From: the human T2T-CHM13v2.0 reference genome, Homo sapiens
Reading direction: 5' to 3' (one strand)
Assembly: GCF_009914755.1 (NCBI RefSeq)
Contig: NC_060947.1
Length of the DNA: 64,000 nucleotides
Positions 3,986-33,268 of this stretch are shown here, in pieces; position 1 is the stretch's first letter; each line of letters begins with the position of its first letter. The position numbers and the translations under genes are program-made. Under the pieces are notes generated by a model. It did not search any database. It saw only the letters and a list, made by a program, of their open reading frames with translations, and was not told the origin of the DNA.

Positions 3986-4147
3986 AAAAATGTTCTTGTT
4001 TGGATGAAAAAGTATATAGTTACACAGTGGAATATAAGTGTACCCTATGTTTGAAGATACTAAGTTGATTTCCCACTCATTTCTTAAGGTAATTCAGTTC
4101 ACCGTAACAATTTTTTTATCTTTGTCTCAGAAAGATAAATCATCTTT

Positions 4148-5633: not shown

Positions 5634-6149
5634 TGTTACACGTATTGATCGCTAAGTAAACCACCCCAATACTGAGTACATGATTCGGCAATACGGTCTG
5701 GACTCAGCTGTGTGGCTTATCTCTGATTCACATGATGTTATTTGGGCTTACTCATGCATTTTCAGTTGACTGTCAACTAAACTAGACTGGAAGATCCAAA
5801 ATGTCTCCGCTCAAATGTCTGACATTTGTTGATGGCTGTAGGATGGAGCATCTTGATTTTTTTCCATATGGCCTCTAACCCTCTGATATGCTAGACCTGG
5901 CTTTTTTTCACAGCAAGGTCTCAGGGTTCCAAGAGAGAAAAAAAAGTTTCATAAGCACTAGCCTTGGAAGTCACATACCACCACTTCCTGCTGCATTCTA
6001 TTGGTCTCAGCAAGTCACATGGCCAGCCCAGATTCTGAGGGGAGGAAATAGACTCTACTTCTGTATGGAAGAAGGGGCAAGGTCACATTGCACAGAGGAG
6101 TGTGGGGAATGGGAGGAATTGTTGTTGCCATTTTTACAAGCACATCTAA
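5634..6149 (-). mobile_element. MLT1-family MaLR LTR (old subfamily)
   Basis: AAACCACCCCAATACTGAG...CATTCTATTGGTC...CAAGTCACATGGCCAGCCCAGATTC...GGAAATAGACTCTAC motifs typical of MLT1. Confidence 0.75.
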
Positions 6150-6799
6150 CTGATCTTCTGGCTTTTAATATCATCATGCCACTAACAGAGTTAACAAATT
6201 TAACAATATTTCCTTTTTAAGATTAATTTTTAAATTTTCTCATTTTTAAATTTACATACAGAAATTTTTTGTGCGTATACTTTTTATGTTTCATTTTTTG
6301 TGGTTTTCATTTGCATTTATCTGATGAATAATGATGGTGAGCACCTTTTCATATACCTGTTGGTAATTTGTATGTCTTTTATGTGGGCTCAGGCCTGGAG
6401 CCTTGGTCCATAGAGGTTAATTTGGCATTGGGGTGGCCCTGGAACCAGGGTCTGTGGGGAAGTGTGTATGTGTATACTGCTGTGAGATTCGACAAATGCA
6501 TAGAGTTCTCTAACAACCACCATGGTTAGAATACAGAAAATTCCCTCAGCAACCAAAAGTCCCTTGAGCTTCCCACTTGTAATCAAACCCTCCTCCACCT
6601 CCTAACCCAGTGATCCCCAACCTTTTAGGCACCAGGGACCAGTTTCATGGAAGATAGTTTTTCCACCGACCAAGGTTGGGATGGTTTCAGGATAATTCAA
6701 GTGTGTTACATTTATTGTCCACTTTATTATTGTTACGTTGTAATATATAATGAAATAATTATACAAGTCACCACAATGTGGAATCTGTGGGAGGCCTGA

Positions 6800-8949
6800 G
6801 TTTTTTTTTTTTTTTTCTTGCAACTGATCGGTTCCATCTAGGGGTGATGGGAGACATTATCACCCAAAGTATGTTGCTTATGTCCAATCTACTCTGTAAT
6901 TTTGTTTTAGTTGCTGTCACTGCAGAAAACCCTGCTTCACAATGATAGGAAGTTGGAAATGGAAGCTGGCTTTTCAGTACTTTTGTGACAGTCTTGGGAT
7001 AGTCTGCCTTGACTTTAATCCAGAACGTATGGAGATTTGAAGTTGTCTCAAACGTACTTTTAAGGGCACTGTCATTTGCAATCTCAAGCAGTTGATTCTC
7101 TTCTAGCATGGACAAAGTCAATTCACCCTGCTTTATTCACAAATGGGTGGCGTATCTGTTCTTTCCCAATTTGGGGAGTCTTTGTGGTTGGAAAGTAATG
7201 CTCAAACTCTTTTGAAAGCTGAGGTAGGTAATCATGCACCAGCTGGAAAAAAGAAGGCCTTGGTCAGTGTCTTTCAAAATCTCTACTAATGTTTGAAACG
7301 TGTCAGAAATCCCAATGTTCACTCATTGTCCCCATAATTCCAGTCTGGCTTTGAATGCCCCCACTTTATCTGCTGGACTGGAACATAGTTGTCATTCCCC
7401 TTTGAAATGACAGATTGAGTTCATTGAGCAGGTTGACTGTGTCACACAAGTAAGCAAGTTTTGTGACCCATTCTGTGTCACTGAAATGTGCTGCCAGTGG
7501 TGACTGTTTTCCTAAAAGAAATCTCTGGAGCAGCTCTTGTAACTCAGAAACTCTAGCCAGTGAGTTTAGAAACCTTTAGAAAGCCATTTCACTTCTGTGT
7601 ACAAGAGAAGACGTGTGCTGTGCGTCCATCTCCTCACAGAGCTGCGCAAACAGATAAAAGTTAAAGGCATGTACTTTAAAGTAGTTGATAATTTTAATCA
7701 TATCCTGCATAACATTGTTAAGTTCGGGTGACATTTTTCGGCTAGCCAGCATTTCTTTATGGATGAACCAGTGTGTGGATTCACATTCAGAAGCAACCTC
7801 TTTGACTTGAGTAGTGAAACCAGAAAGCCATCCAGTCATGGCAGCTGTTCCGTCTGTGCATATACCAACACAAAATGACCAATTCAGTTCTTCTGATATG
7901 TAATCATTCAAAGACTTGAATAGTTCTGCAGCTGTATTGTTAGTTGGGAACAAAAGTGTACATAACATATCTTCGTGCACATCCTCCTGAAAAGTATATT
8001 ACATAAAAACAAGCATTGCTGCCTTGTTCTTAACATCGGTACACAAACCTGGATCATGTACCATGGTGACTCGTTAATCCTCTCTAACAATTGTTCCTCA
8101 ATATCCTCTGCTATTTTATCAATTCGTCTAGTTATGGTGCTAGCCGAAAGAAGAACAAGTGCCACCTTTTGAACTGCAGCCTCTCCGAAAAGGTCATGAC
8201 AAATGTCCGTAGCAGCAGGCAGGATCAACTCTTCAACAACAGTAAAGGGATCCTTAGCTTTGTCAGTGTGGTTAGCCACTAAAAATGATGCTCTCAGTGC
8301 AGACACATTTGAGGAAGTGGTGGTCTTCAATAATTGCTTCTGTTCTTTGTGCTATTTTGTTCTTTTGAAAAACTCCAAAGGCTTGTCTTTTAATTCAGGG
8401 TGCTTGGTCTCCATGTGGTGAAGCAGTGTTTTTTTTTTTTTTTTTGAGACAGAGTCTCACTGTATCACCCAGGCTGGAGTGCACAATCTCAGCTCACTGC
8501 AACCTCCACTCCCCCAACCCCTCGGGTTCAAGCAATTCTCCTGCCTCAGCCTCCCGAATAGCTAGGACAACAGGCATGCACCACCACGCCCGGCTAATTT
8601 TTGTATTTTTAGTAGAGACGGGGTTTCTCCATGTTGGCCAGGCTGGTCTCGAACTCCTGACCTCAGGTGATCCATCCGCCTCAGCCTCCCAAAGTCCTGG
8701 GATTACAGGTGTGAGCCACTGCGCCTGGCCTGGTGAAGCAGTTTTGAAGGTTTGATGGCTTCATGGGATACCCAGTTGCCACATACAAAGCACGCTTGGA
8801 GACTGTCAGTCACCTGTTGCAGTGAACCCATAATTCAAGTAAGACTCTTGGTATTTTCTTGTAAATGCAGCTTTCTTTTTCTTGGCAGTCTTAGAGTCTT
8901 CTGCTGTCTTGGGCCTTTCCCCCTTTTCAAAGAAGCTCTCCAGCGACAT
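6800..8949 (-). pseudogene. Disrupted Charlie/Buster-type hAT transposase
   Basis: ORF pieces 7908-8330 (PFTVVEELILPAA..LSASTITRRI), 7576-7980 (CVGICTDGTAAMTG..THWFIHKEMLAS, DDE and CxxH region), 6768-7121 (FWIKV..PFPTSYHCEAGFS, hATC dimerisation); frameshifts, stops and an Alu insertion. Confidence 0.85.
8429..8730 (-). mobile_element. AluS inserted in the Charlie3 transposase
   Basis: Dimeric Alu with T tail; TSD TGGTGAAGCAGT at 8416-8427 and 8731-8742. Confidence 0.95.
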
Positions 8950-24901: not shown

Positions 24902-26769
24902 ATACACTTTCCATCTCCTAACAGAAATCGTATATCCTTGATGGAGAACGTATAAGTCAATAGCATGCTTCAGAATGGAGACAATATTTTTTTATTTCTT
25001 GTCCTATCCTAGCTCTCTGAAACACTAGTAGGTGGGTATTGGCGACCATGCAACTAGATTGCTATCAAAAATAAAATTCTTAAATTTAGCTTTTTAAAGG
25101 GAACAAAAACTGACTGTGGACTAGCCATCAACAAAGAACTGCTGAACACAGCAGCTCGAGCAGTGAGACACTGCCGGAAAAGAGCAGCATACCAAATTGC
25201 CTTGCCAACCTTGCTTCAATAGCTGTTCAACAGGGTTCCCATGCAGCTTTCAAGTCTTAGTTTCTATTTGTGCTTTGCTTCAGTGTTAACTTCCAATTTA
25301 GGCTTTTAAAATGGAAACTCAATCTTAAAATCAGTTTGGATGCCAGAAAAGCATTTTTTGAAGAGGCAAGGAAACGAAGACATTATATTTATATAAAAAA
25401 TGGGCAGATGAGGAACTGTAATAAGAATTTCATGAGTGACTCTTATTCTAGGATGCTTTTTTCCCCCTACTACAGTCTATTCTTTTTTACTAGATAACAC
25501 ACAAGCTTTGATTTAAAAGTTTTATAAGTTACGCCTAAATGGATATTTAGAAGAGCACACATGATCAGCTCATTTGAAGATAAATTACCTACTTGATTTC
25601 TAGTTCAGTGTGTTTTCAATGCATATTTAGAATCAGACCTTCATTTGGCACCCTCTGAAGCCAGGCACCTTCATATTCAGGCTTGTGTGCACCCAAGTAT
25701 TAATCTAGAAGTTAAAATGGGATCTTAATATATTTTAGTGAAGGTAAGATATAACTCAGTGGAAACTGGTAGCCCAATCTCAACAGTATATACTTCTTTT
25801 AAAGACACTTAAAACAAAACAATAAATCTATGTGTGTCAAACAATATCTATAGATATTAATCTCTAACTTAAACTTTACCTTTTTCTTCACAAATACGCA
25901 GAATTAATATTATTTTTCCTGTTTTGTTGAAGAAGGATCTAAACATTAAAGGAGGTAAGCATTAGTTCTTAGCTCGTGAAAGTGGTGAGACTGGAATTTT
26001 AACTTGGGACTACCTCTTTGACTCTAAAATCCATATTCTTTTCATTGCTTATTCCTAGCTTCCTTTAAAAATCAACATAGGTATCTTGTATAAGATGTTC
26101 AGCAGCTGTTTATTAAATTGAATATTTGTATTTTCAGTATCCCAGCTGAGTTAATACTTTGACTACTTTCTACTAAGCATACTTCTTTAAGACTTTGTAA
26201 TTTCAAAATTTTAAAAAACACACAGAGCAGTTCCTCTTGAATGGTAACAAGATAACAAGAAGTTAAATTTCAGATTCATTGTGGACACATGTTTTTGTAA
26301 AATACAATAAAAATTAAACATTGGAAAAATTAACAGTGGTATAAAATGCAATCCAAGTTTTTTTAATGACTAGACTCAATAGACATAAAATTACTTCTCC
26401 AGTTTGCTAAGAAAAATTTGCAAGCACACTTACTTTCTATTTCTCCATCTATCTTCTTGAGGACTGGTATAGTTGGAGGACATATACTTGTCTGCTTATC
26501 CACAAAGCCACATTAAGCAGCTGTATCTTAGAAAATTATTGACTTCACATACTTCCTTAGTGCTCCCTTTGGTAATATTTATTCTAAAATTGGAATAATA
26601 TGGGGGAAAATAAAGCATTTCATATATAACAACAAAAAGAAATAACAAAAATATTTGTTCATTTTTCAAAAATTTACCCAGGAAAGAAACCAGAAATTAA
26701 TAGAACTGTTTAGTTATAGGTGGCGGGTGGGAACAGGGTTGTTAGGACAAACAGCCAAATTTGAAGCTA

Positions 26770-27030
26770 CAGTCAATAATTTTTAATGTTTGGTGATGTT
26801 GAATTTTTTGAATTTTCTAATTGTACTATAGTTATATAATTATATGTCCTGGCTCTTAGGAAATACACACTGAAGTATTTATGAATATAGAGGCCTGATG
26901 TCTGTAACATTCACCCAAATTGGTTAGGGGGGAAATGTTAGCAATTCATATATTTAGCTGAGGACTGTACAGGAGTTTTTTATCTTGTTTCATTCTTGCA
27001 ATCCTTCTCTGAGTTTGAAATTATTTTGAA
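26770..27030 (+). mobile_element. L1MC/ME-type 3'UTR fragment
   Basis: TCTTAGGAAATACACACTGAAGTATTTA..GATGTCTGTAAC..GAGTTTGAAATTATTT. Confidence 0.65.
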
Positions 27031-27515
27031 ATAGACAAAGGACACTTCGTTAACTTTTAAAGGATATATATGCAGAACTGACAAAAAGGAAGAGAAACAT
27101 TAGCACGTAGTTTTTTCATGGAATTCACCAACTTCCCATATTTACGACCGAATTTTGATATACTTTTAAACTTGAGACCTCGGGAAGAATTGTGCAGTGA
27201 AATTTTTTAGCCTGTATTTACTCTGGCTGAATTGTGAGCAATATTTAAAAAGCATTCACTAGATATTACATCTAATTAATCTCCTGCCAGACACTTAATC
27301 TGCTGTGAAATTCAGCTGCCATGAAGATAATTTGACAAAGTGGCTTAAATTGTTAATAGTAAAGCTATTTGAATATGAGGACCAAATTATAGATGCCTCC
27401 ATCATCTGTAGGTCAGTGCTGGCCTAGAAAGCAAAACGAATGCCCAAAAGTACCAGTTTTCTACTTATTTGGATGTAATTGTTATTTAAGGAGGTACTGG
27501 TAAGGCTTTCTGCCT

Positions 27516-30500
27516 ACCACAACCATTTTAGACCTCTCTTGACCAGCAATGGGTGGTTTAGATGAGTCTAGAATGGATGCAATAGGTTTTGGCCAGTTTT
27601 GACTAGTCATGGCTGGTTCCAACCAGTCCAGGCTGGTTTGGACTGTCATGGGTTAGACTGACTGTGACTGGCCTCAACTGGTTTAGAGAGATTTTGAACA
27701 GAACTGACCTGTTTAGCCACAACTGGTTTAGTCCGGTTGTGACTGGCCACAGCCAGTTTACACTGGTTTAGACAAGCTGCAACCAGATTTGAATGGTTTT
27801 GACTGGCCATGACTGACTTAGGCTTTGACTGGTTTGAACCATTCTTGGTTGGATGCAACTTGTTTAGACCAGTTTTGGCTGGCCACAACTGGATTAGACT
27901 TTCCACGACCAGTTCAGACCAGCATTGATTGGTCTAGATCAGCTTCAATCAACTTAGGTTGGACTCAACTGTTTTTGTTTGTTGATTTTGTTTTTGAGAC
28001 AGGATCTCACTCTGTTGCCAAGGCTGAAGTGCAGTGGTGCGATCATGGCTCACTGCAGCCTCAACCTCCTGGGCTCAAGTGATTCTCCCACCTCAGCCTC
28101 CTGAGTAACCGGGGCTACGGGCATGTAACACCATGCCTGGCTAATTTTTTGTGATTTTGTGGAGACAGGGTTTTGCCATGTTGCCCAGGCTGGTCTCCAA
28201 CTCCTGGGCTCAAGCAATCCTCCTGCCTTGGCCTCCGGAAGTGCTGGAATTACAGGCTTGAACCACTGCACCTGGCCTAAACTGGGTTAGACTTGTTGCA
28301 AATGGCATAGGCCAGTTGTGCCTGGCGGCAACCAGTTTAAGCTGATTTTCACTGGCCGTGACCAGTTTAGACCAGGTACAACCAGTTTAGATGAGTTTTG
28401 CCCAGATGTAAATGGATTCAACTGGCTGTGACTTGTTTGGATCAGCCTCAAACACACTCTGATGACTACAACAGGAACTGACTGGCCTTGATTGGCCATT
28501 ACTGGCATTGACTGGTTTCAGCTGGCAATGACTGTTAGACCTGTCTTGACTAGCCCTGGGAAGTTTAGATCAGCCTAGACTGGACATGACTGGTTTAGGC
28601 CAGTTTTGACCAATCAGGGTTAGTTCTGACCAGTCTAGGCTGGTTTGGACTGGTCATAAATGGCTTAGGCAGGTTATGACTGGGCTCAACTGGCTTCGGG
28701 TGGTTTTTTTCCAGCCCTCAACAAGCTTAGGCCGGTTTCAGCAAGCCCAGCCACACTGTTTTATATAGGTTTACACCATCAACAATTGGATTTGGCTGGT
28801 TTTGACTGTCACTGGCAACAACTGGTTGAGTCATGTGTCAGCTGGTTTTGACCAGTTTTGTCTGGCTACAGTCATTTCTACTAGCCACAAGGGGTTTAGA
28901 TTGGTTGCATTATGATGTGACTGGTTTTGAATGCCCACTACCAGTTCAGAGAAGCATCAAGTGGTTAAAACCAGTTTTGACCAGTTTAGACCAGCTGCAA
29001 CCACATTTGACCAGTTTACACAAGGCAGAAGATGTTTGGGTATATCTCAACCATCTTGAACTGGTTTGGACCTGCCACAACTGGTTTTAGCAGGTCTTGA
29101 CCAGCTTGAACTGGTTGTGACCAGCTGAAACTGGTTTTGGCTGTTTTTGACTGGCCGTGATTTGGTGAGACTGGCCACAATGAGATTTGAACAGGTTTTT
29201 CCAGGAGCGACCAGTTTAGATGAGTTTAGACTGGACCTGACCAGTTCAGGCCAGTTTTGACCAGTTCCTACCAGGTCCACTTAGGTTGTTGTGACCAGTC
29301 TAGGCTGGTTTAGACTGGCCACAATTGGTTTAAAACTGTTGTAACTGGCCTTGACTTGTTTTGAGTGTTTTTGACCAGTCTCTACTGGTTTAGACTGGTT
29401 TTGACTGGTCACAACCTGATTAGACTGGTTTAGACTGTCTGCAACTTGATTTAGCCAATTTCACCTGGACACAACTGGATTTGACTTTTTGACTGGCAAT
29501 ATCTGTTTAAAGTAGGCCTCTACCAGTTTAGACTGGTTTGACTAGCTGCATCCAGTTTAGACCAGTTTTGTCTGGCATAACTGGCTTTGACCCCCTACAA
29601 TCAGTTTAGGTCAGTTTCAAGTGGTTACAACTGGTTTATCCTGGCCATGACTGGTTTAGACCAGCCACAGTGGGATTTAATAAATTTTGACTGGCCATAA
29701 CCCATTCAGATGGCACTGGCTTCTTCAGACTGGCCTCAATCAGTTTAGGCTGGCCACAATCAGACTCAATTGGTTTAACTGGCTATACCAGATTTGGCCA
29801 GTTTGGACTGGCCATGACTTGTTTAGACTGGCTTTGACTGGTATAGACCAGCTACAAATAGATTAGACATATTTTGAGTTTTCATAAATAACTCTGGACT
29901 TTACATGACCAGATTAGACCAGTTTCGACTGGTCATGGCTAGTTCTAATCCCTCCAGGCTAGTTTTAGTTTGGTTGTAACTGACCTTGGCCACTTTACAC
30001 CAGTTTTGAATGTCTATACCAGTTTAGACTTGCTGCCATCATTTTAGGCCAGTTTTGAGTGTCCACAAGCCACAACAGGGCCTAACCTTTTTTGACCAGT
30101 CATGACAAGTTTAGATTGGCCTGGACCAGTTTAAACTGTTTTTTGACTAGCCGCAACTGATTTGGGCTGGGTTCAACTTGCCACAACTGGTTTTGAATGG
30201 CCACAACTGGTTTAGACCAGCCACAGCTGGTTTAGACTAGCTTCAACTGGTTTCAAGCAGCCACAACTGGTTTAGTCTAAATTTGGTGTAGCCAGCTTAG
30301 TCTTTGTTTTGCCCAGCGGCCACCAAATTCAACTGTTTTTGATGGCCCACAATTGGTTTGGACTGACTTCAACTGGTTTCAACTCCCATGACAAATTTAT
30401 AATGATTTTGGTTGGCAAGGACTGGTTGTTTCAGGATTTGACCAGCCATAACCATTTTAGACTGGTTTTGACTGGCCAGGACTGGTTTAGATGGTCTAGA

Positions 30501-30976
30501 TTGGCTTCAGTCTATTTAGACTTGTTTTGGCTAGTCATCACAGGTTCTGACTGGTTTCTATGGCCACAGCAGCTTTATACTCATCACAATTGATCTAAAC
30601 TAGTTTTATCTGGAAACCACCAGATAAACTTGTTTTGACTGGTCAGTACCAGTTTAGACTGGCTTAGACCAGTTTTGACCAGCTTCAGCTGGCTTTGGCT
30701 GTCCATAACTGGTTTCTAATGTTTACAACTAGTTATGAATGGTTTTGTCTATAATGGTTTCTACTGGTTTTGGCTGGTTGTGACTTGTTTTAACCAGTTT
30801 CATTTTTAACTGGCTTTGATCAGCTTCTACTGGCTTTGACTGGCTGTGACTTGTTTCTGTTCATTTTGGCTGGTTGCAATGAGTTTTGCCATGACTGGGT
30901 TCAACTGGCTTTGACTACCTTTGATTGTCAATGACTATTGGTGTCCTTTAGTCACCAGCAGTGTCCCCTGGTGACT
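27516..30976. repeat. Degenerate 10-bp-unit tandem array (ACTGG/ACCAG + TTTAG/TTTTG/CCACA), ~3.1 kb excluding the Alu
   Basis: e.g. 30181-30275: CCACAACTGG TTTTGAATGG CCACAACTGG TTTAGACCAG CCACAGCTGG TTTAGACTAG CTTCAACTGG; CTGG/CCAG recur every 10 bp. Confidence 0.93.
27972..28277 (-). mobile_element. AluJ inserted in the decamer array
   Basis: J-diagnostic GATCATGGCTCACTGCAGCCTCAACCTCCTGGGCTCAAG; array units on both sides. Confidence 0.92.
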
Positions 30977-31214
30977 GGTCATGAACAGCCATAGCACAGT
31001 AGCAGCACATGGTGTTGTTCATGTGTTCGTGTGTTCACTATGTGGCTGATTGAGGCTAGGGCAGGTCTTTGCATGTTTTCTTCAAAGGCTTGACTAGACA
31101 CACCTACATCACATTAGATACTTAATGATCTGGCAGAGTACACTTTTCCATTGGGGGATGGAAAGATTAAGCCACCTGGGGCATCAGCAAGGGAGGATAG
31201 GGGCTATGGGGATG

Positions 31215-31420
31215 GCTGCCAGAGCCAGATTCCATGGGGTTGAATCCTGTTCTGCCACTTCCTAGTTGTGTGACTTTGGCAAGTCACTTAACTACTCTGC
31301 TCTTCTGTTTCCTGATCTGTAGATGGGGATGATAATAGGACCTAGTTCATGGAGTACTTGTAAGGATCAAATGAGAACATGCCTAACACAAGTCCCACAT
31401 CAGTAATATATAATAATAAT
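31215..31420 (+). mobile_element. MIR
   Basis: GGGTTGAATCCTG..CTGCCACTT..AGTTGTGTGACTTTGGCAAGTCACTTAAC..CTGTAGATGGGGATGATAATAG. Confidence 0.85.
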
Positions 31421-32927
31421 CCTTATTATTTTATGTGATAATATACTGATATACTACTGATGCTTCTACTATATAAGATTTCTTAGTTTCATTTTCTATC
31501 TTCTGCCATGTTGTTATCTCAAATAGGGAATTGGATTTGTAGATATTTGCTGCTCTGCTACATCCAGGTGATGAACAGAGACTATTGGAGAAGCTGAGGG
31601 CCCAAATACAGTGCTTTCTCCTCACACTCACAAGGTCTGAGATACATCCAGGCTAAGACCTTGGGGGTCACCCAAGGGTTGGGACATGAATAAACACTTC
31701 AAAATATTAAAACCCATCTGATTATGCCATGAGTGAATATGTTCCACCTGATAACAAAATGAGTTGAAAGTCAGAAACAAGCAAACATGCACAAACAAAA
31801 TCCAGCATTGTCAGAACGGCCCGGTCAAAGTATTTGTTTTGTGGATTAGGGGAAAGAATTAAGGCCCAGAAATGAGGAAAGGGTGTATGTTTTTCAGTGT
31901 GTTGGGAGAAACACAATGTCTGAAAATCATGAGGTTAATCATATATTAAAATACTTGAGACCAGAAGGATCTACCCCACCTGTGGGGTTTGAAAGGTTTG
32001 TTTGAATGGCTTTCTGCCTCTCATTAGCAGTCAGTTTACAGTTCACATCTTTCTGCTGGGTTCAAGGGGTCCTCTCATGATGCACAGGATGCACACTTCA
32101 GGTTCAGATGGCTACACTATTCCTTTTTGGTTCTGGTTTTATACATTTTCCAGGGCTTATCTACAGAGAAATTTCATGCCCAGATTCCAATCACAGAAGG
32201 AGTCTGCCTTTAACGATTTGGTTAATGCCCTTAACATTTTAAACAATCTCAACTCTGCCCATTTAGTATAATTTAAACAATGGAAGCCAAAAGTTTTAAT
32301 TAACTAACATAAATTGTTTCCCTACTAATAAATTTCCTGGAACTCTTAATACATACTTTCTATTAATAGCTTGAGATAAGATACTGTTTGGGAGATATTG
32401 AACCAATATATTTTCTGTTTCCATAACCTTTAGTTCCAAATCGTCCTACAGCTTCAAGGACAGTAAGCCCCACTTAACGGTCCAAGGTGATAATGTTTTT
32501 CCTGTTGGAAAACATTGGATATAGAAGATATTCCAGGCTTGGGATGTTGGTTGTGAGACTTGCTGCTTTAGAGTAGGGGTATAATGTAGATGATCCTTTC
32601 TGGTTCTCATGAATTATGCAAAGACGTAGTGGAAAATCAGTGCAGCTGACTCAGGCTCTAGATGTTTCTTTCTACTTCACCATCAAGGGAGTGGATCCTA
32701 GGCAATAACTGACATTCTCATATAGGTTTAATGCTTCCAACATATCTCATCCCATACTTAGAGCAGCAAATCATCCCTCCTGATATTTCTAAGGCCCCTC
32801 TTTCTCCTTATTTCTTTGAGTTTGGATTGGGTTGGGGGAGAGGCTGAGGTGGGTGTGGATAAGAGACTTCCCTTGTTTTCTTCCCTCTCCTTTTCCCTTA
32901 CAATATACCAAGACCTGAAGGGGTGGC

Positions 32928-33268
32928 ACATTAGTTTATTAGGGCTGTCATAACAAAATGCCACAGACTGAGTGACTTAAACAGATGTCTTACAAGTTTG
33001 GTGGCTGTAAGTCTACAATCAAAGCGTCTGCAGGATTGGTTTCTCCTGAGGCTTCTCTTCTTGGGTAGTAGATGGCCACTTTCCTGCTGTATCTTCACAT
33101 GATATTTCCTCTGCAAAGGTACAACCCTGATGTCTCTCTGTATGTCCAAATTTACTCTTAATAACCTCTTTAAAGGCCTTATCTCCAAATACAGTCACAT
33201 TCTGAGATACTGGGGATTATAGCTTCAGTAAAGAATTTGCAGAGTGGCACAATCCAGCCCATTAATAG
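32928..33268 (-). mobile_element. MLT1A/A0 LTR
   Basis: AGGGCTGTCATAACAAAATGCCACAGACTGAGTGACTTAAAC..TTAAAGGCCTTATCTCCAAATACAGTCACATTCTGAG. Confidence 0.85.

What the first reader, a model, noticed from the sequence alone, without database searches (positions are those of the whole stretch)
27516..30976. Unexplained ~3.1 kb degenerate decamer array in otherwise TE-filled DNA
Seen: roughly 300 diverged 10-bp units (length/10) built from ACTGG or ACCAG plus TTTAG/TTTTG/TTTCA/CCACA/CCATG, often as a 20-bp dimer (CCACAACTGG TTTAGACCAG). Register is held over long stretches (e.g. 30181-30275, 29551-29575) despite heavy substitution. It resembles no SINE, LINE, LTR, DNA transposon or classical satellite that I recognise. 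Inference: an old locus-specific minisatellite whose ~1-helical-turn periodicity may be functionally retained (protein-binding platform, nucleosome phasing or lncRNA repeat domain).
Basis: partly seen in the sequence, partly recalled or inferred. Interest (0 to 1): 0.82.

Follow-up and report, generated by a model that had tools for sequence, protein, structure and literature searches.

The report
Old decayed decamer minisatellite, one of a family
The 3.1 kb stretch is a real but heavily decayed tandem array of 10-base units that has about a dozen relatives elsewhere in the same human genome, so it is an old minisatellite from a small dispersed family and shows no sign of a preserved function.

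Summary
Window 27516-31014 is a degenerate 10-bp array (consensus GACYRG-YYTW) of about 3.15 kb, split by one antisense Alu at about 27975-28280. Identity at lags 10, 20 and 30 is 0.43-0.45, against 0.26 in shuffles (z = 19-23).

- **Not locus-specific.** The same decamer forms arrays of 0.3-3 kb at 10 other places that I read. Four more places are known only from a match row.
- **One true paralogue.** The chr1:208.48 Mb array shares the window's terminal ~230 bp.
- **Six arrays share flanks.** Five on chrX and one on chr19 share a ~0.5 kb flank. Two pairs share more, so they look like old segmental copies.
- **Register is not preserved.** Phase coherence is gone by about 150 bp, and 55-102 phase-shifting small indels are inferred.
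- **Arrays diverge faster than flanks:** 64-66% against 79-81% identity.
- **No other signals.** There is no open frame, no Rfam family at its threshold and no annotated gene.

Best reading: a neutral relic of an ancient minisatellite family, older than an old Alu, whose units are mutually complementary and so prone to hairpins. How it dispersed is unresolved. I could not run Dfam or RepeatMasker, cross-species alignments or chromatin data. Interest is low to moderate.

The parts
27516..27974 (+). Decamer array, left segment (459 bp). Units read GACYRG plus a T-rich spacer on the + strand.
   Evidence: Sequence. Lag-10 profile 0.39-0.44. 14 exact cores. Cyclic consensus GACTGGTTTT at 64% identity. 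Bases 27528-27695 match 28535-28707 at 76% over 173 bp.
27975..28280 (-). Alu inserted into the array (antisense, with its poly-T at the left end). It is not part of the array.
   Evidence: Rfam Metazoa_SRP matches at 27994-28141 and 28160-28276 on the minus strand, E = 1e-13 and 2e-10, below the family's gathering score, as expected for an Alu. Sequence. Non-CpG divergence of 14% from the majority of the window's 5 full Alus.
28281..30950 (+). Decamer array, main segment.
   Evidence: Lag 10/20/30 identity 0.43/0.45/0.44, z = 19-23. 98 exact cores, 73 of 97 spacings a multiple of 10. TRF rows of period 10, 20, 30 and 40. All six frames carry 46-69 stops. 300-nt pieces fold with z = -4.2 to -6.4.
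30951..31014 (+). Terminal block of degenerate units. It is shared, in reverse orientation, with the array at chr1:208.48 Mb. Homology stops at about 31014.
   Evidence: Local alignment score 61 against 20.2 +/- 2.3 in shuffles. A 22-mer with one free position is found exactly only at these two places in the genome; the other 8 matches, each with 2 mismatches, lie in loci without an array. A gentler alignment extends the homology about 170 bp into the array and ends at 31014. Nothing aligns beyond it. The best score of this block in 9 other array loci is 18-35.

Best explanation
Window 27516-31014 is an ancient, mutationally decayed minisatellite with a 10-bp unit (GACYRG + YYTW on the + strand).

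Shown:
- It belongs to a small family of paralogous decamer arrays scattered over the same genome.
- It predates an old Alu insertion.
- It has lost long-range register.

Inferred:
- It grew by replication slippage and unequal exchange of decamers and of multi-unit blocks.
- The family spread early in eutherian history by DNA-level duplication (segmental copying, and possibly transposition of array-bearing DNA).
- Since then the arrays have drifted without selection on sequence or phase.

The two core variants, with the base that follows, are reverse complements of each other (ACTGGT and ACCAGT). Either strand can therefore fold into long imperfect hairpins. This probably favoured slippage, unit inversion and local rearrangement. 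It is a physical property of the sequence, not evidence of a role.
For: 1. Real periodic array confined to this span.

2. Family.
- The census pattern ACYRGYYDN (three times) followed by GACYRG, with at most 1 mismatch, gave 49 matches against 7 for the reversed control.
- The 11 places were chr1:182.23 (a variant unit), chr1:244.56, chr16:69.70, chr17:52.56, chr19:39.81, chr19:48.12, and chrX:25.26 (this window, 6 matches), 48.12, 50.28, 72.98 and 111.46.
- BLAST added chr1:208.48. A flank search added chrX:126.98 and chrX:50.45.
- I read the arrays at 10 of these places besides the window.
- Fitted decamer matrices give the same IUPAC consensus everywhere. Pearson r to the window's matrix is 0.62-0.93 over 11 array segments.

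3. True paralogy, not convergence.
- The window and chr1:208.48 share the array end.
- chrX:72.98, 111.46, 126.98 and 50.28 and chr19:48.12 share a ~0.5 kb flank, and chrX:48.12 carries about its first 110 bp.
- chrX:72.98 and 50.28 share more than 4 kb on the other side at about 79%.
- chrX:72.98 and 111.46 share a further downstream block.

4. Age and decay.
- 63-65% identity to the consensus.
- Internal blocks match at 67-76%.
- An Alu of 14% non-CpG divergence lies inside the array.
- At chr1 an L1 ORF2 fragment (E = 5e-23 to solved L1 ORF2p) separates two array segments.

5. No sign of constraint.
- Phase coherence is lost by about 150 bp.
- 55-102 phase-breaking indels are inferred.
- Arrays are 64-66% alike where their flanks are 79-81% alike.
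- Stops occur in all six frames.
- No Rfam family reaches its gathering score.
- RefSeq annotates no gene or functional element in the window (hub note in the task).

6. Hairpin propensity: RNA folds of three 300-nt pieces give z = -5.2, -6.4 and -4.2, and 0 of 200 shuffles fold as well.
Against: - Neutrality is argued from within one genome. No orthologous sequence, chromatin, methylation or expression data could be consulted.
- Indels of exactly 10 bp are invisible to the cyclic alignment, so a bias towards multiples of 10 was not tested.
- The indel count depends on gap costs (55 against 102), and the expected neutral number is only a recalled rule of thumb.
- How the family dispersed is not shown. 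A mobile element could be responsible, and I could not compare the sequence with Dfam or Repbase.
- Seven of the 15 listed places are on chrX, which is about 5% of the genome. This could point to something X-related, although six of those seven are tied together by shared flanks and so are not independent.
- Four of the 15 places (chrX:50.45, chr17:52.56, chr11:50.59 and chr1:182.23) are known only from match rows. I did not read them.
Confidence: 0.6

Rival explanations
1. The arrays are the variable internal tandem-repeat region of an extinct, low-copy mobile element. Candidates are a composite non-LTR retroposon built like SVA (hexamers, tandem-repeat region, unique tail, A-rich end) or a DNA transposon with repeated binding sites. 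The window would hold a copy that lost or never had the other parts.
For: - Arrays with the same unit lie on at least six chromosomes.
- The chrX:72.98 and chrX:50.28 copies begin with degenerate CCCTAA-like hexamers, then decamers, then a shared ~0.5 kb tail that ends in an A-rich stretch.
- Copies differ at the left end. chrX:111.46 has no hexamers, as 5' truncation would give.
- The window and chr1:208.48 share one sharp array end.
- At chr16:69.70 the two borders carry a similar ~15-bp AT-rich string. I saw this by eye and did not test it.
Against: - The window has no target-site duplication. No match of 8 bp or more links its two borders, whereas 21 of 100 shuffles gave one.
- I saw no terminal inverted repeat, LTR or poly-A at the window's borders.
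- The window has neither the hexamers nor the tail.
- The tail has only 5 matches in the genome, all on chrX. The chr19 tail finds only itself.
- The chrX copies also share unrelated elements beyond the module: a high-copy repeat with 2187 first-look candidates and a weak L1 ORF2 piece (E = 0.017). That fits segmental copying better than transposition.
- No protein family matched the flanks. This null is weak, because Pfam also missed clear L1 ORF2 pieces.
Confidence: 0.2
2. The 10-bp period is kept by selection because the array works as a helical-phase platform. It could be intrinsically bent DNA or a nucleosome-positioning tract, or a row of same-face binding sites for an architectural or zinc-finger protein.
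For: - The unit is exactly 10 bp, with a T-rich spacer in phase. TTT occurs in 52 of 113 spacers.
- The invariant part of the unit is kept across all family members.
- Seven of 15 listed places are on chrX.
Against: - Register is lost within about 150 bp, with 55-102 small frame-breaking indels.
- Arrays diverge faster than their flanks.
- Array lengths range from 0.3 to 3.2 kb, and spacers differ between loci.
- The chrX excess is largely due to copies that share flanks.
- RefSeq lists no functional element here (hub note).
Confidence: 0.07
3. The array is transcribed, and its mutually complementary units give long hairpins or double-stranded RNA. It would then be a repeat domain of a long non-coding RNA or a source of small RNAs.
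For: - Strong predicted folding on both strands, z = -4.2 to -6.4.
- Two weak microRNA-family matches lie inside the array: mir-3045 (23 bits) and MIR4416 (22 bits).
Against: - Both matches are far below their gathering scores of 90 and 70 bits, with E = 0.26-0.3.
- No gene or transcript is annotated in the window (hub note).
- The folding follows automatically from the unit's symmetry.
- Nothing available here shows transcription.
Confidence: 0.04

Closest known systems
Decayed (ancient) minisatellites, the kind of old tandem repeat that sensitive repeat finders are built to label
   Same: - Head-to-tail short units that have piled up substitutions and small indels until the pattern is only statistical.
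- TRF finds the array only in pieces (31 rows in total for 26000-33000, with matches of 63-100%).
- The ULTRA paper describes this decay of old repeats (PMC11580682; I read passages only).
   Different: - At 3.15 kb it is long for so decayed an array.
- It has sequence relatives at a dozen other places, some with shared flanks. That is not expected from independent slippage, which the same paper names as the usual reason why short repeats look alike.
SVA-type composite retrotransposons (hexamer repeat, tandem-repeat region, unique 3' part, poly-A). Structure recalled, not tested against a reference.
   Same: The chrX:72.98 and chrX:50.28 relatives have hexamers, then a tandem array, then a unique tail with an A-rich end.
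   Different: - The hexamers are telomere-like (CCCTAA-like) rather than CCCTCT.
- The unit is 10 bp.
- There are few copies.
- The copies share neighbouring unrelated repeats.
- The window copy has no hexamers, tail, poly-A or target-site duplication.
Foldback-type transposon arms of Drosophila, built of 10-, 20- and 31-bp tandem units (recalled)
   Same: 10-, 20- and 30-bp periodic arrays with strong self-complementarity. At chr1:208.48 about 130 bp of the array are inverted next to the main array.
   Different: The window array has one orientation throughout. T-rich spacers stay on the + strand from end to end, and there are no minus-strand self-matches at E <= 1e-6. It is therefore not a pair of inverted arms.
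X-linked architectural tandem repeats such as DXZ4 and FIRRE (recalled)
   Same: Tandem repeats that occur at several places on chrX.
   Different: As I recall them, those have units of hundreds to thousands of bases and bind CTCF. I recognise no CTCF-like motif in this decamer, which is recall and not a motif scan. No binding data were available.

Membership tests
Minisatellite (tandem repeat, unit about 10-100 bp, array 0.5-30 kb) | Head-to-tail copies of one short unit | tested here: met
   Lag-10 identity 0.43 against 0.26, z = 19. TRF rows of period 10, 20, 30 and 40. Cyclic consensus GACTGGTTTT.
Minisatellite (tandem repeat, unit about 10-100 bp, array 0.5-30 kb) | Array length in the kilobase range at an interstitial site | tested here: met
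   3155 bp without the Alu. The signal is confined to 27.5-31.0 kb of the window.
   11 places in the pattern census, plus chr1:208.48 and chrX:126.98 and 50.45. The array end is shared with chr1:208.48.
Classical satellite DNA | Very many copies in long arrays of tens of kb to Mb | tested here: not met
   49 census matches in the whole genome. The arrays I read are 0.3-3.2 kb. The search tool warns that its counts are lower bounds.
Internal repeat of a transposable element | Target-site duplication and terminal structures (inverted repeats, LTRs or poly-A) at the borders | tested here: not met
   No border match of 8 bp or more in the window, against 21 of 100 shuffles that gave one. I saw no poly-A or terminal repeats at the borders.
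Internal repeat of a transposable element | Many copies sharing both ends, or a match to a curated family | not testable with these tools
   No Dfam, Repbase or RepeatMasker was at hand. Only one other copy shares the window's end. Searches with the window's two border regions found only themselves.
Internal repeat of a transposable element | Element-encoded protein remnants next to the array | tested here: inconclusive
   Of 99 open frames within 5 kb of the window array, 97 had no Pfam match. The other two had weak matches below their cut-offs, which I take as chance. All 91 frames around chrX:72.98 had none. Pfam also missed clear L1 ORF2 pieces, so the null is weak.
Functionally phased periodic element | Register kept over long distances; indels avoid non-multiples of the period | tested here: not met
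   Coherence is gone by about 150 bp. 55-102 inferred phase-shifting indels, mostly 1 bp. 24 of 97 core spacings are off-phase. Indels of exactly 10 bp could not be scored.
Protein-coding repeat | An open reading frame through the repeats | tested here: not met
   46-69 stops in each of six frames over 2.7 kb. The longest open stretch is 105 codons.
Known structured RNA family (Rfam 15) | A score at or above the family's gathering threshold | tested here: not met
   The two matches inside the array proper score 22-23 bits against thresholds of 70-90. The other matches lie in the Alu.

The most novel reading that the evidence does not exclude
The decamer arrays are the remains of one unnamed ancient eutherian element or duplicon family. 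Its most complete members (chrX:72.98 and 50.28) read telomere-like hexamers, decamer array, ~0.5 kb tail, then at chrX:72.98 hexamers again. This could be an extinct SVA-like composite retroposon, or old subtelomere-type duplicons now buried inside chromosomes. The hairpin-forming decamers may still mark sites of special chromatin on the X. The window array would be the largest surviving member.
Probability: 0.15. Interest if true: 0.5.

Novelty: new member of a known kind. Interest (0 to 1): 0.27.

Why it matters
As it stands the finding is mostly housekeeping. It explains 3.5 kb of "unclassified" sequence in a gene desert as an old minisatellite.

The one point of wider interest is that so decayed a short-unit array has recognisable paralogues with shared ends and flanks. 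Such families are easy to miss, because repeat finders label each array separately as a simple repeat. If the family proves to be an unnamed mobile element or an old duplicon type, it would add a small entry to the human repeat catalogue and a dating marker for ancient rearrangements on the X.

Tried and rejected
1. **Flank homology among chr1:208.48, chr19:39.81 and chrX:50.28.** I first took this as evidence for a shared element. It is ordinary L1 ORF2: E = 1e-22 and 5e-23 to solved L1 ORF2p (sequence). Rejected as evidence.

2. **Shared unique 'head' in the window and chr1.** On parsing, it is the array's own terminal degenerate units. It still proves paralogy but is not a separate element part.

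3. **The ~0.5 kb tail of the chrX-type arrays as a MIR element.** It looked like one by eye. Local alignment of 5 flanks (4 tails and the chr1:244.56 flank) against the window's own MIR-like copy gave z = -0.1 to 3.4, with no convincing match. Not claimed. Pairwise tests between old copies are insensitive.

4. **A ~650-700 bp higher-order repeat**, suggested by three block matches. Long-lag autocorrelation shows no peak there, only a modest rise near 1440-1500. Not claimed.

5. **Strict ACTGG/ACCAG alternation (a 20-bp unit).** Rejected.

6. **Pfam match to the INTS6/SAGE1/CT45 C-terminus at 27060-27206(-).** E = 0.0065, 16.5 bits, below the cut-off of 27, one of 99 frames, in a lysine-rich peptide. 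Taken as chance.

7. **Rfam FTX_2 match at 27225-27307(-).** 22 bits against a threshold of 48, E = 0.8. Taken as chance.

8. **chrX enrichment.** Seven of 15 places are on chrX, but six of the seven are linked by shared flanks. Not claimed as significant.

9. **Literature.**
- Six decamer strings found only primers and unrelated text: 122 papers held at least one string, and none of the 20 listed was relevant.
- A word search for an X-linked 10-bp minisatellite family found nothing relevant: 37 papers matched, and I read the listings of the 10 shown.
- These two searches are my only basis for saying I found no description in print.

Full report
**What is there**

Bases 27516-31014 are built of 10-bp units that read GACYRG followed by a mostly T-rich four-base spacer on the + strand.

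- In the main segment, identity is 0.430 at lag 10, 0.453 at lag 20 and 0.435 at lag 30. In 500 shuffles it is 0.258 +/- 0.009, so z = 19-23.
- A sliding profile over the whole 64 kb shows the signal continuously only here.
- Exact ACTGG or ACCAG cores occur 112 times in 3155 bp, or 35.5 per kb, against 1.7 per kb elsewhere in the window.
- Of 97 neighbouring-core spacings, 73 are multiples of 10.
- TRF sees the array only in pieces of period 10, 20, 30 or 40.
- An antisense Alu at about 27975-28280 interrupts the array (7SL-type matches; sequence).
- ACTGG and ACCAG units do not alternate regularly, so the basic period is 10, not 20.
- A fitted cyclic model gives the consensus GACTGGTTTT with 63-65% identity of units to it.
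- All six reading frames are full of stops.

**It is not unique to this place**

BLAST of the array against the rest of the genome found similar arrays at chrX:72.98 Mb and chr1:208.48 Mb. Searches started from those found more: chr19:39.81, chrX:111.46, 50.28 and 48.12, chr19:48.12 and chr1:244.56.

I then ran a census that does not start from any one locus. The pattern was ACYRGYYDN three times followed by GACYRG, with at most one mismatch.

- It gave 49 matches, against 7 for the reversed control pattern.
- The matches fell at 11 places: chr1:182.23 (a variant unit), chr1:244.56, chr16:69.70, chr17:52.56, chr19:39.81, chr19:48.12, and chrX:25.26 (this window, 6 matches), 48.12, 50.28, 72.98 and 111.46.
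- A flank search added chrX:126.98 and chrX:50.45.
- A looser census added a single variant match at chr11:50.59.

I read the sequence at 10 of these places besides the window and fitted the same model to each. All give the consensus GACYRG-YY-W/T-T. Their matrices correlate with the window's at r = 0.62-0.93 over 11 array segments.

Four places (chrX:50.45, chr17:52.56, chr11:50.59 and chr1:182.23) I know only from match rows. The search tool states that its counts of repeats are lower bounds.

**The relatives are true paralogues**

The last ~60 bp of the window array (30951-31014) align with the end of the chr1:208.48 array, in reverse orientation.

- The alignment score is 61, against 20.2 +/- 2.3 for shuffles.
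- A 22-mer from this block, with one free position, occurs exactly only at these two places in 3.1 Gb. The eight other matches, each with two mismatches, lie in loci without an array.
- With gentler scoring the homology runs about 170 bp further into the array and stops sharply at 31014.
- Nothing aligns beyond it or at the other ends.
- The block is absent from nine other array loci.
- On parsing, the block is itself made of degenerate decamers. The two loci therefore inherited an already formed array end.

A second group shares flanks.

- chrX:72.98, 111.46, 126.98 and 50.28 and chr19:48.12 share about 0.5 kb to the right of the array. chrX:48.12 carries only about the first 110 bp of it.
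- chrX:72.98 and 50.28 also share more than 4 kb to the left at about 79%. That stretch includes a repeat with 2187 first-look candidates in the genome. In both, degenerate CCCTAA-like hexamers lie directly before the decamers.
- chrX:72.98 and 111.46 share a second hexamer block. After it comes a short piece that matches L1 ORF2 weakly (E = 0.017), and then a stretch that I recall as the end of a Tigger-type transposon, which I did not test.
- Shared unrelated repeats of this kind point to old segmental copying rather than to a mobile element.

**Age**

- Internal multi-unit blocks match at 67-76%. The best is 173 bp at 76%, between 27528-27695 and 28535-28707.
- The Alu inside the array differs from the majority of the window's five full Alus at 14% of non-CpG sites. 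The other four differ at 6.8-18.9%. This is a rough measure from five copies, but it places the Alu among the older ones, and the array is older still.
- At chr1:208.48 an L1 ORF2 fragment (E = 5e-23) with a further GC-rich insertion separates a 450-bp array segment from the main one. About 130 bp next to the shared end are inverted relative to the rest.

**Is the period kept by selection?**

Nothing I could test says so.

- Identity at multiples of 10 falls from 0.43 at lag 10 to 0.37 at lag 60, to 0.30 at lags 100-130, and to 0.27-0.28 from 150 on. The mean over lags 100-1600 is 0.258.
- The cyclic alignment needs 102 phase-shifting indels with lenient gap costs (main segment) or 55 with strict costs (whole array), mostly of one base.
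- Of 97 core spacings, 24 are off-phase.
- This is about one break per 26-110 bp. As I recall, primates show roughly one small indel per eight to ten substitutions, so this looks unremarkable for sequence this diverged. That comparison is inference, not a test.
- Indels of exactly 10 bp cannot be seen this way.
- Between paralogues the arrays are 64-66% identical where the adjoining flanks are 79-81%. That is the opposite of what constraint on the array would give, although unequal exchange also speeds array turnover.

**Physical properties**

With the base that follows, the two core variants are reverse complements of each other (ACTGGT and ACCAGT). Either strand can therefore pair with itself. 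Three 300-nt pieces fold with z = -5.2, -6.4 and -4.2, and none of 200 shuffles folds as well. This follows from the unit and may have promoted slippage and the local inversion seen at chr1.

The T-rich spacers recur in helical phase: TTT occurs in 52 of 113 spacers. Intrinsic bending is therefore conceivable, but this is inference only. The two microRNA-family matches inside the array are far below threshold.

**Surroundings**

- No RefSeq gene or functional element lies in the window (hub note).
- Within 5 kb on either side, 97 of 99 open frames have no Pfam match, and the two matches are weak.
- Pfam also failed on clear L1 ORF2 pieces, so this null says little.
- The window's flanks from 22 to 37 kb share nothing but the Alu with the flanks of eight other array loci.
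- Searches with the window's two border regions found only themselves.
- The borders have no target-site duplication.

**Verdict**

'Old minisatellite' is right, 'locus-specific' is wrong, and 'periodicity functionally retained' has no support.

The best reading is a neutral relic of an ancient decamer minisatellite that belongs to a small paralogous family (confidence about 0.6). A low-copy extinct mobile element as the vehicle of dispersal remains possible (about 0.2).

I could not compare with Dfam or Repbase, other mammals, or any chromatin or RNA data. Those are the decisive tests. I found no description of the family in two literature searches. The ULTRA paper gives the general background on decayed repeats (PMC11580682; passages read).

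Noticed in passing
L055 (chrX:72,975,500-72,985,499), about 4000-4130 and 5975-6860; L056/L032 (chrX:50.28 Mb): Degenerate telomere-like CCCTAA-type hexamer blocks sit directly before the decamer array. At chrX:72.98 and 111.46 they appear again after the ~0.5 kb tail. The left block matched chromosome-end repeats on many chromosomes at 73-82%. The structure recalls an interstitial telomere or subtelomere, or the hexamer-plus-tandem-repeat layout of SVA.
   Followed up: partly
L059/L067 (chr1:208,475,850-208,487,699): The chr1 paralogue is rearranged. A 450-bp array segment is followed by a 5'-truncated L1 ORF2, which carries a ~3 kb very GC-rich insertion and lacks its 3' end. Then come the shared array end with about 130 bp of array inverted, and finally 1.4 kb of array in the usual orientation.
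   Followed up: partly
window 31190-31400 (+): A stretch that I recognise from memory as a MIR SINE lies about 170 bp beyond the array end. MIR-like sequence also seemed to adjoin the chr1:244.56 array. The alignment test with the window copy was not significant.
   Followed up: partly
L063 (chr16:69,702,400-69,706,399), 1520-2150: The chr16 member has a clear 30-bp superunit of three decamers. A similar ~15-bp AT-rich string sits at both borders and could be a target-site duplication. I saw this by eye only.
   Followed up: no
L064 (chrX:126,973,000-126,976,999), 1790-2610: This member keeps the GACYRG core but has purine-rich spacers (CAGA, CAAG). The spacer therefore drifts while the core stays.
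   Followed up: no
chr1:182,228,422-182,228,751 (not fetched): A related 20-bp array of GACCGG/GACTGG cores with ATAA and TCAG spacers gave many census matches. It may be a more distant family member.
   Followed up: no
Pfam nulls therefore cannot be used to exclude LINE remnants.
   Followed up: yes
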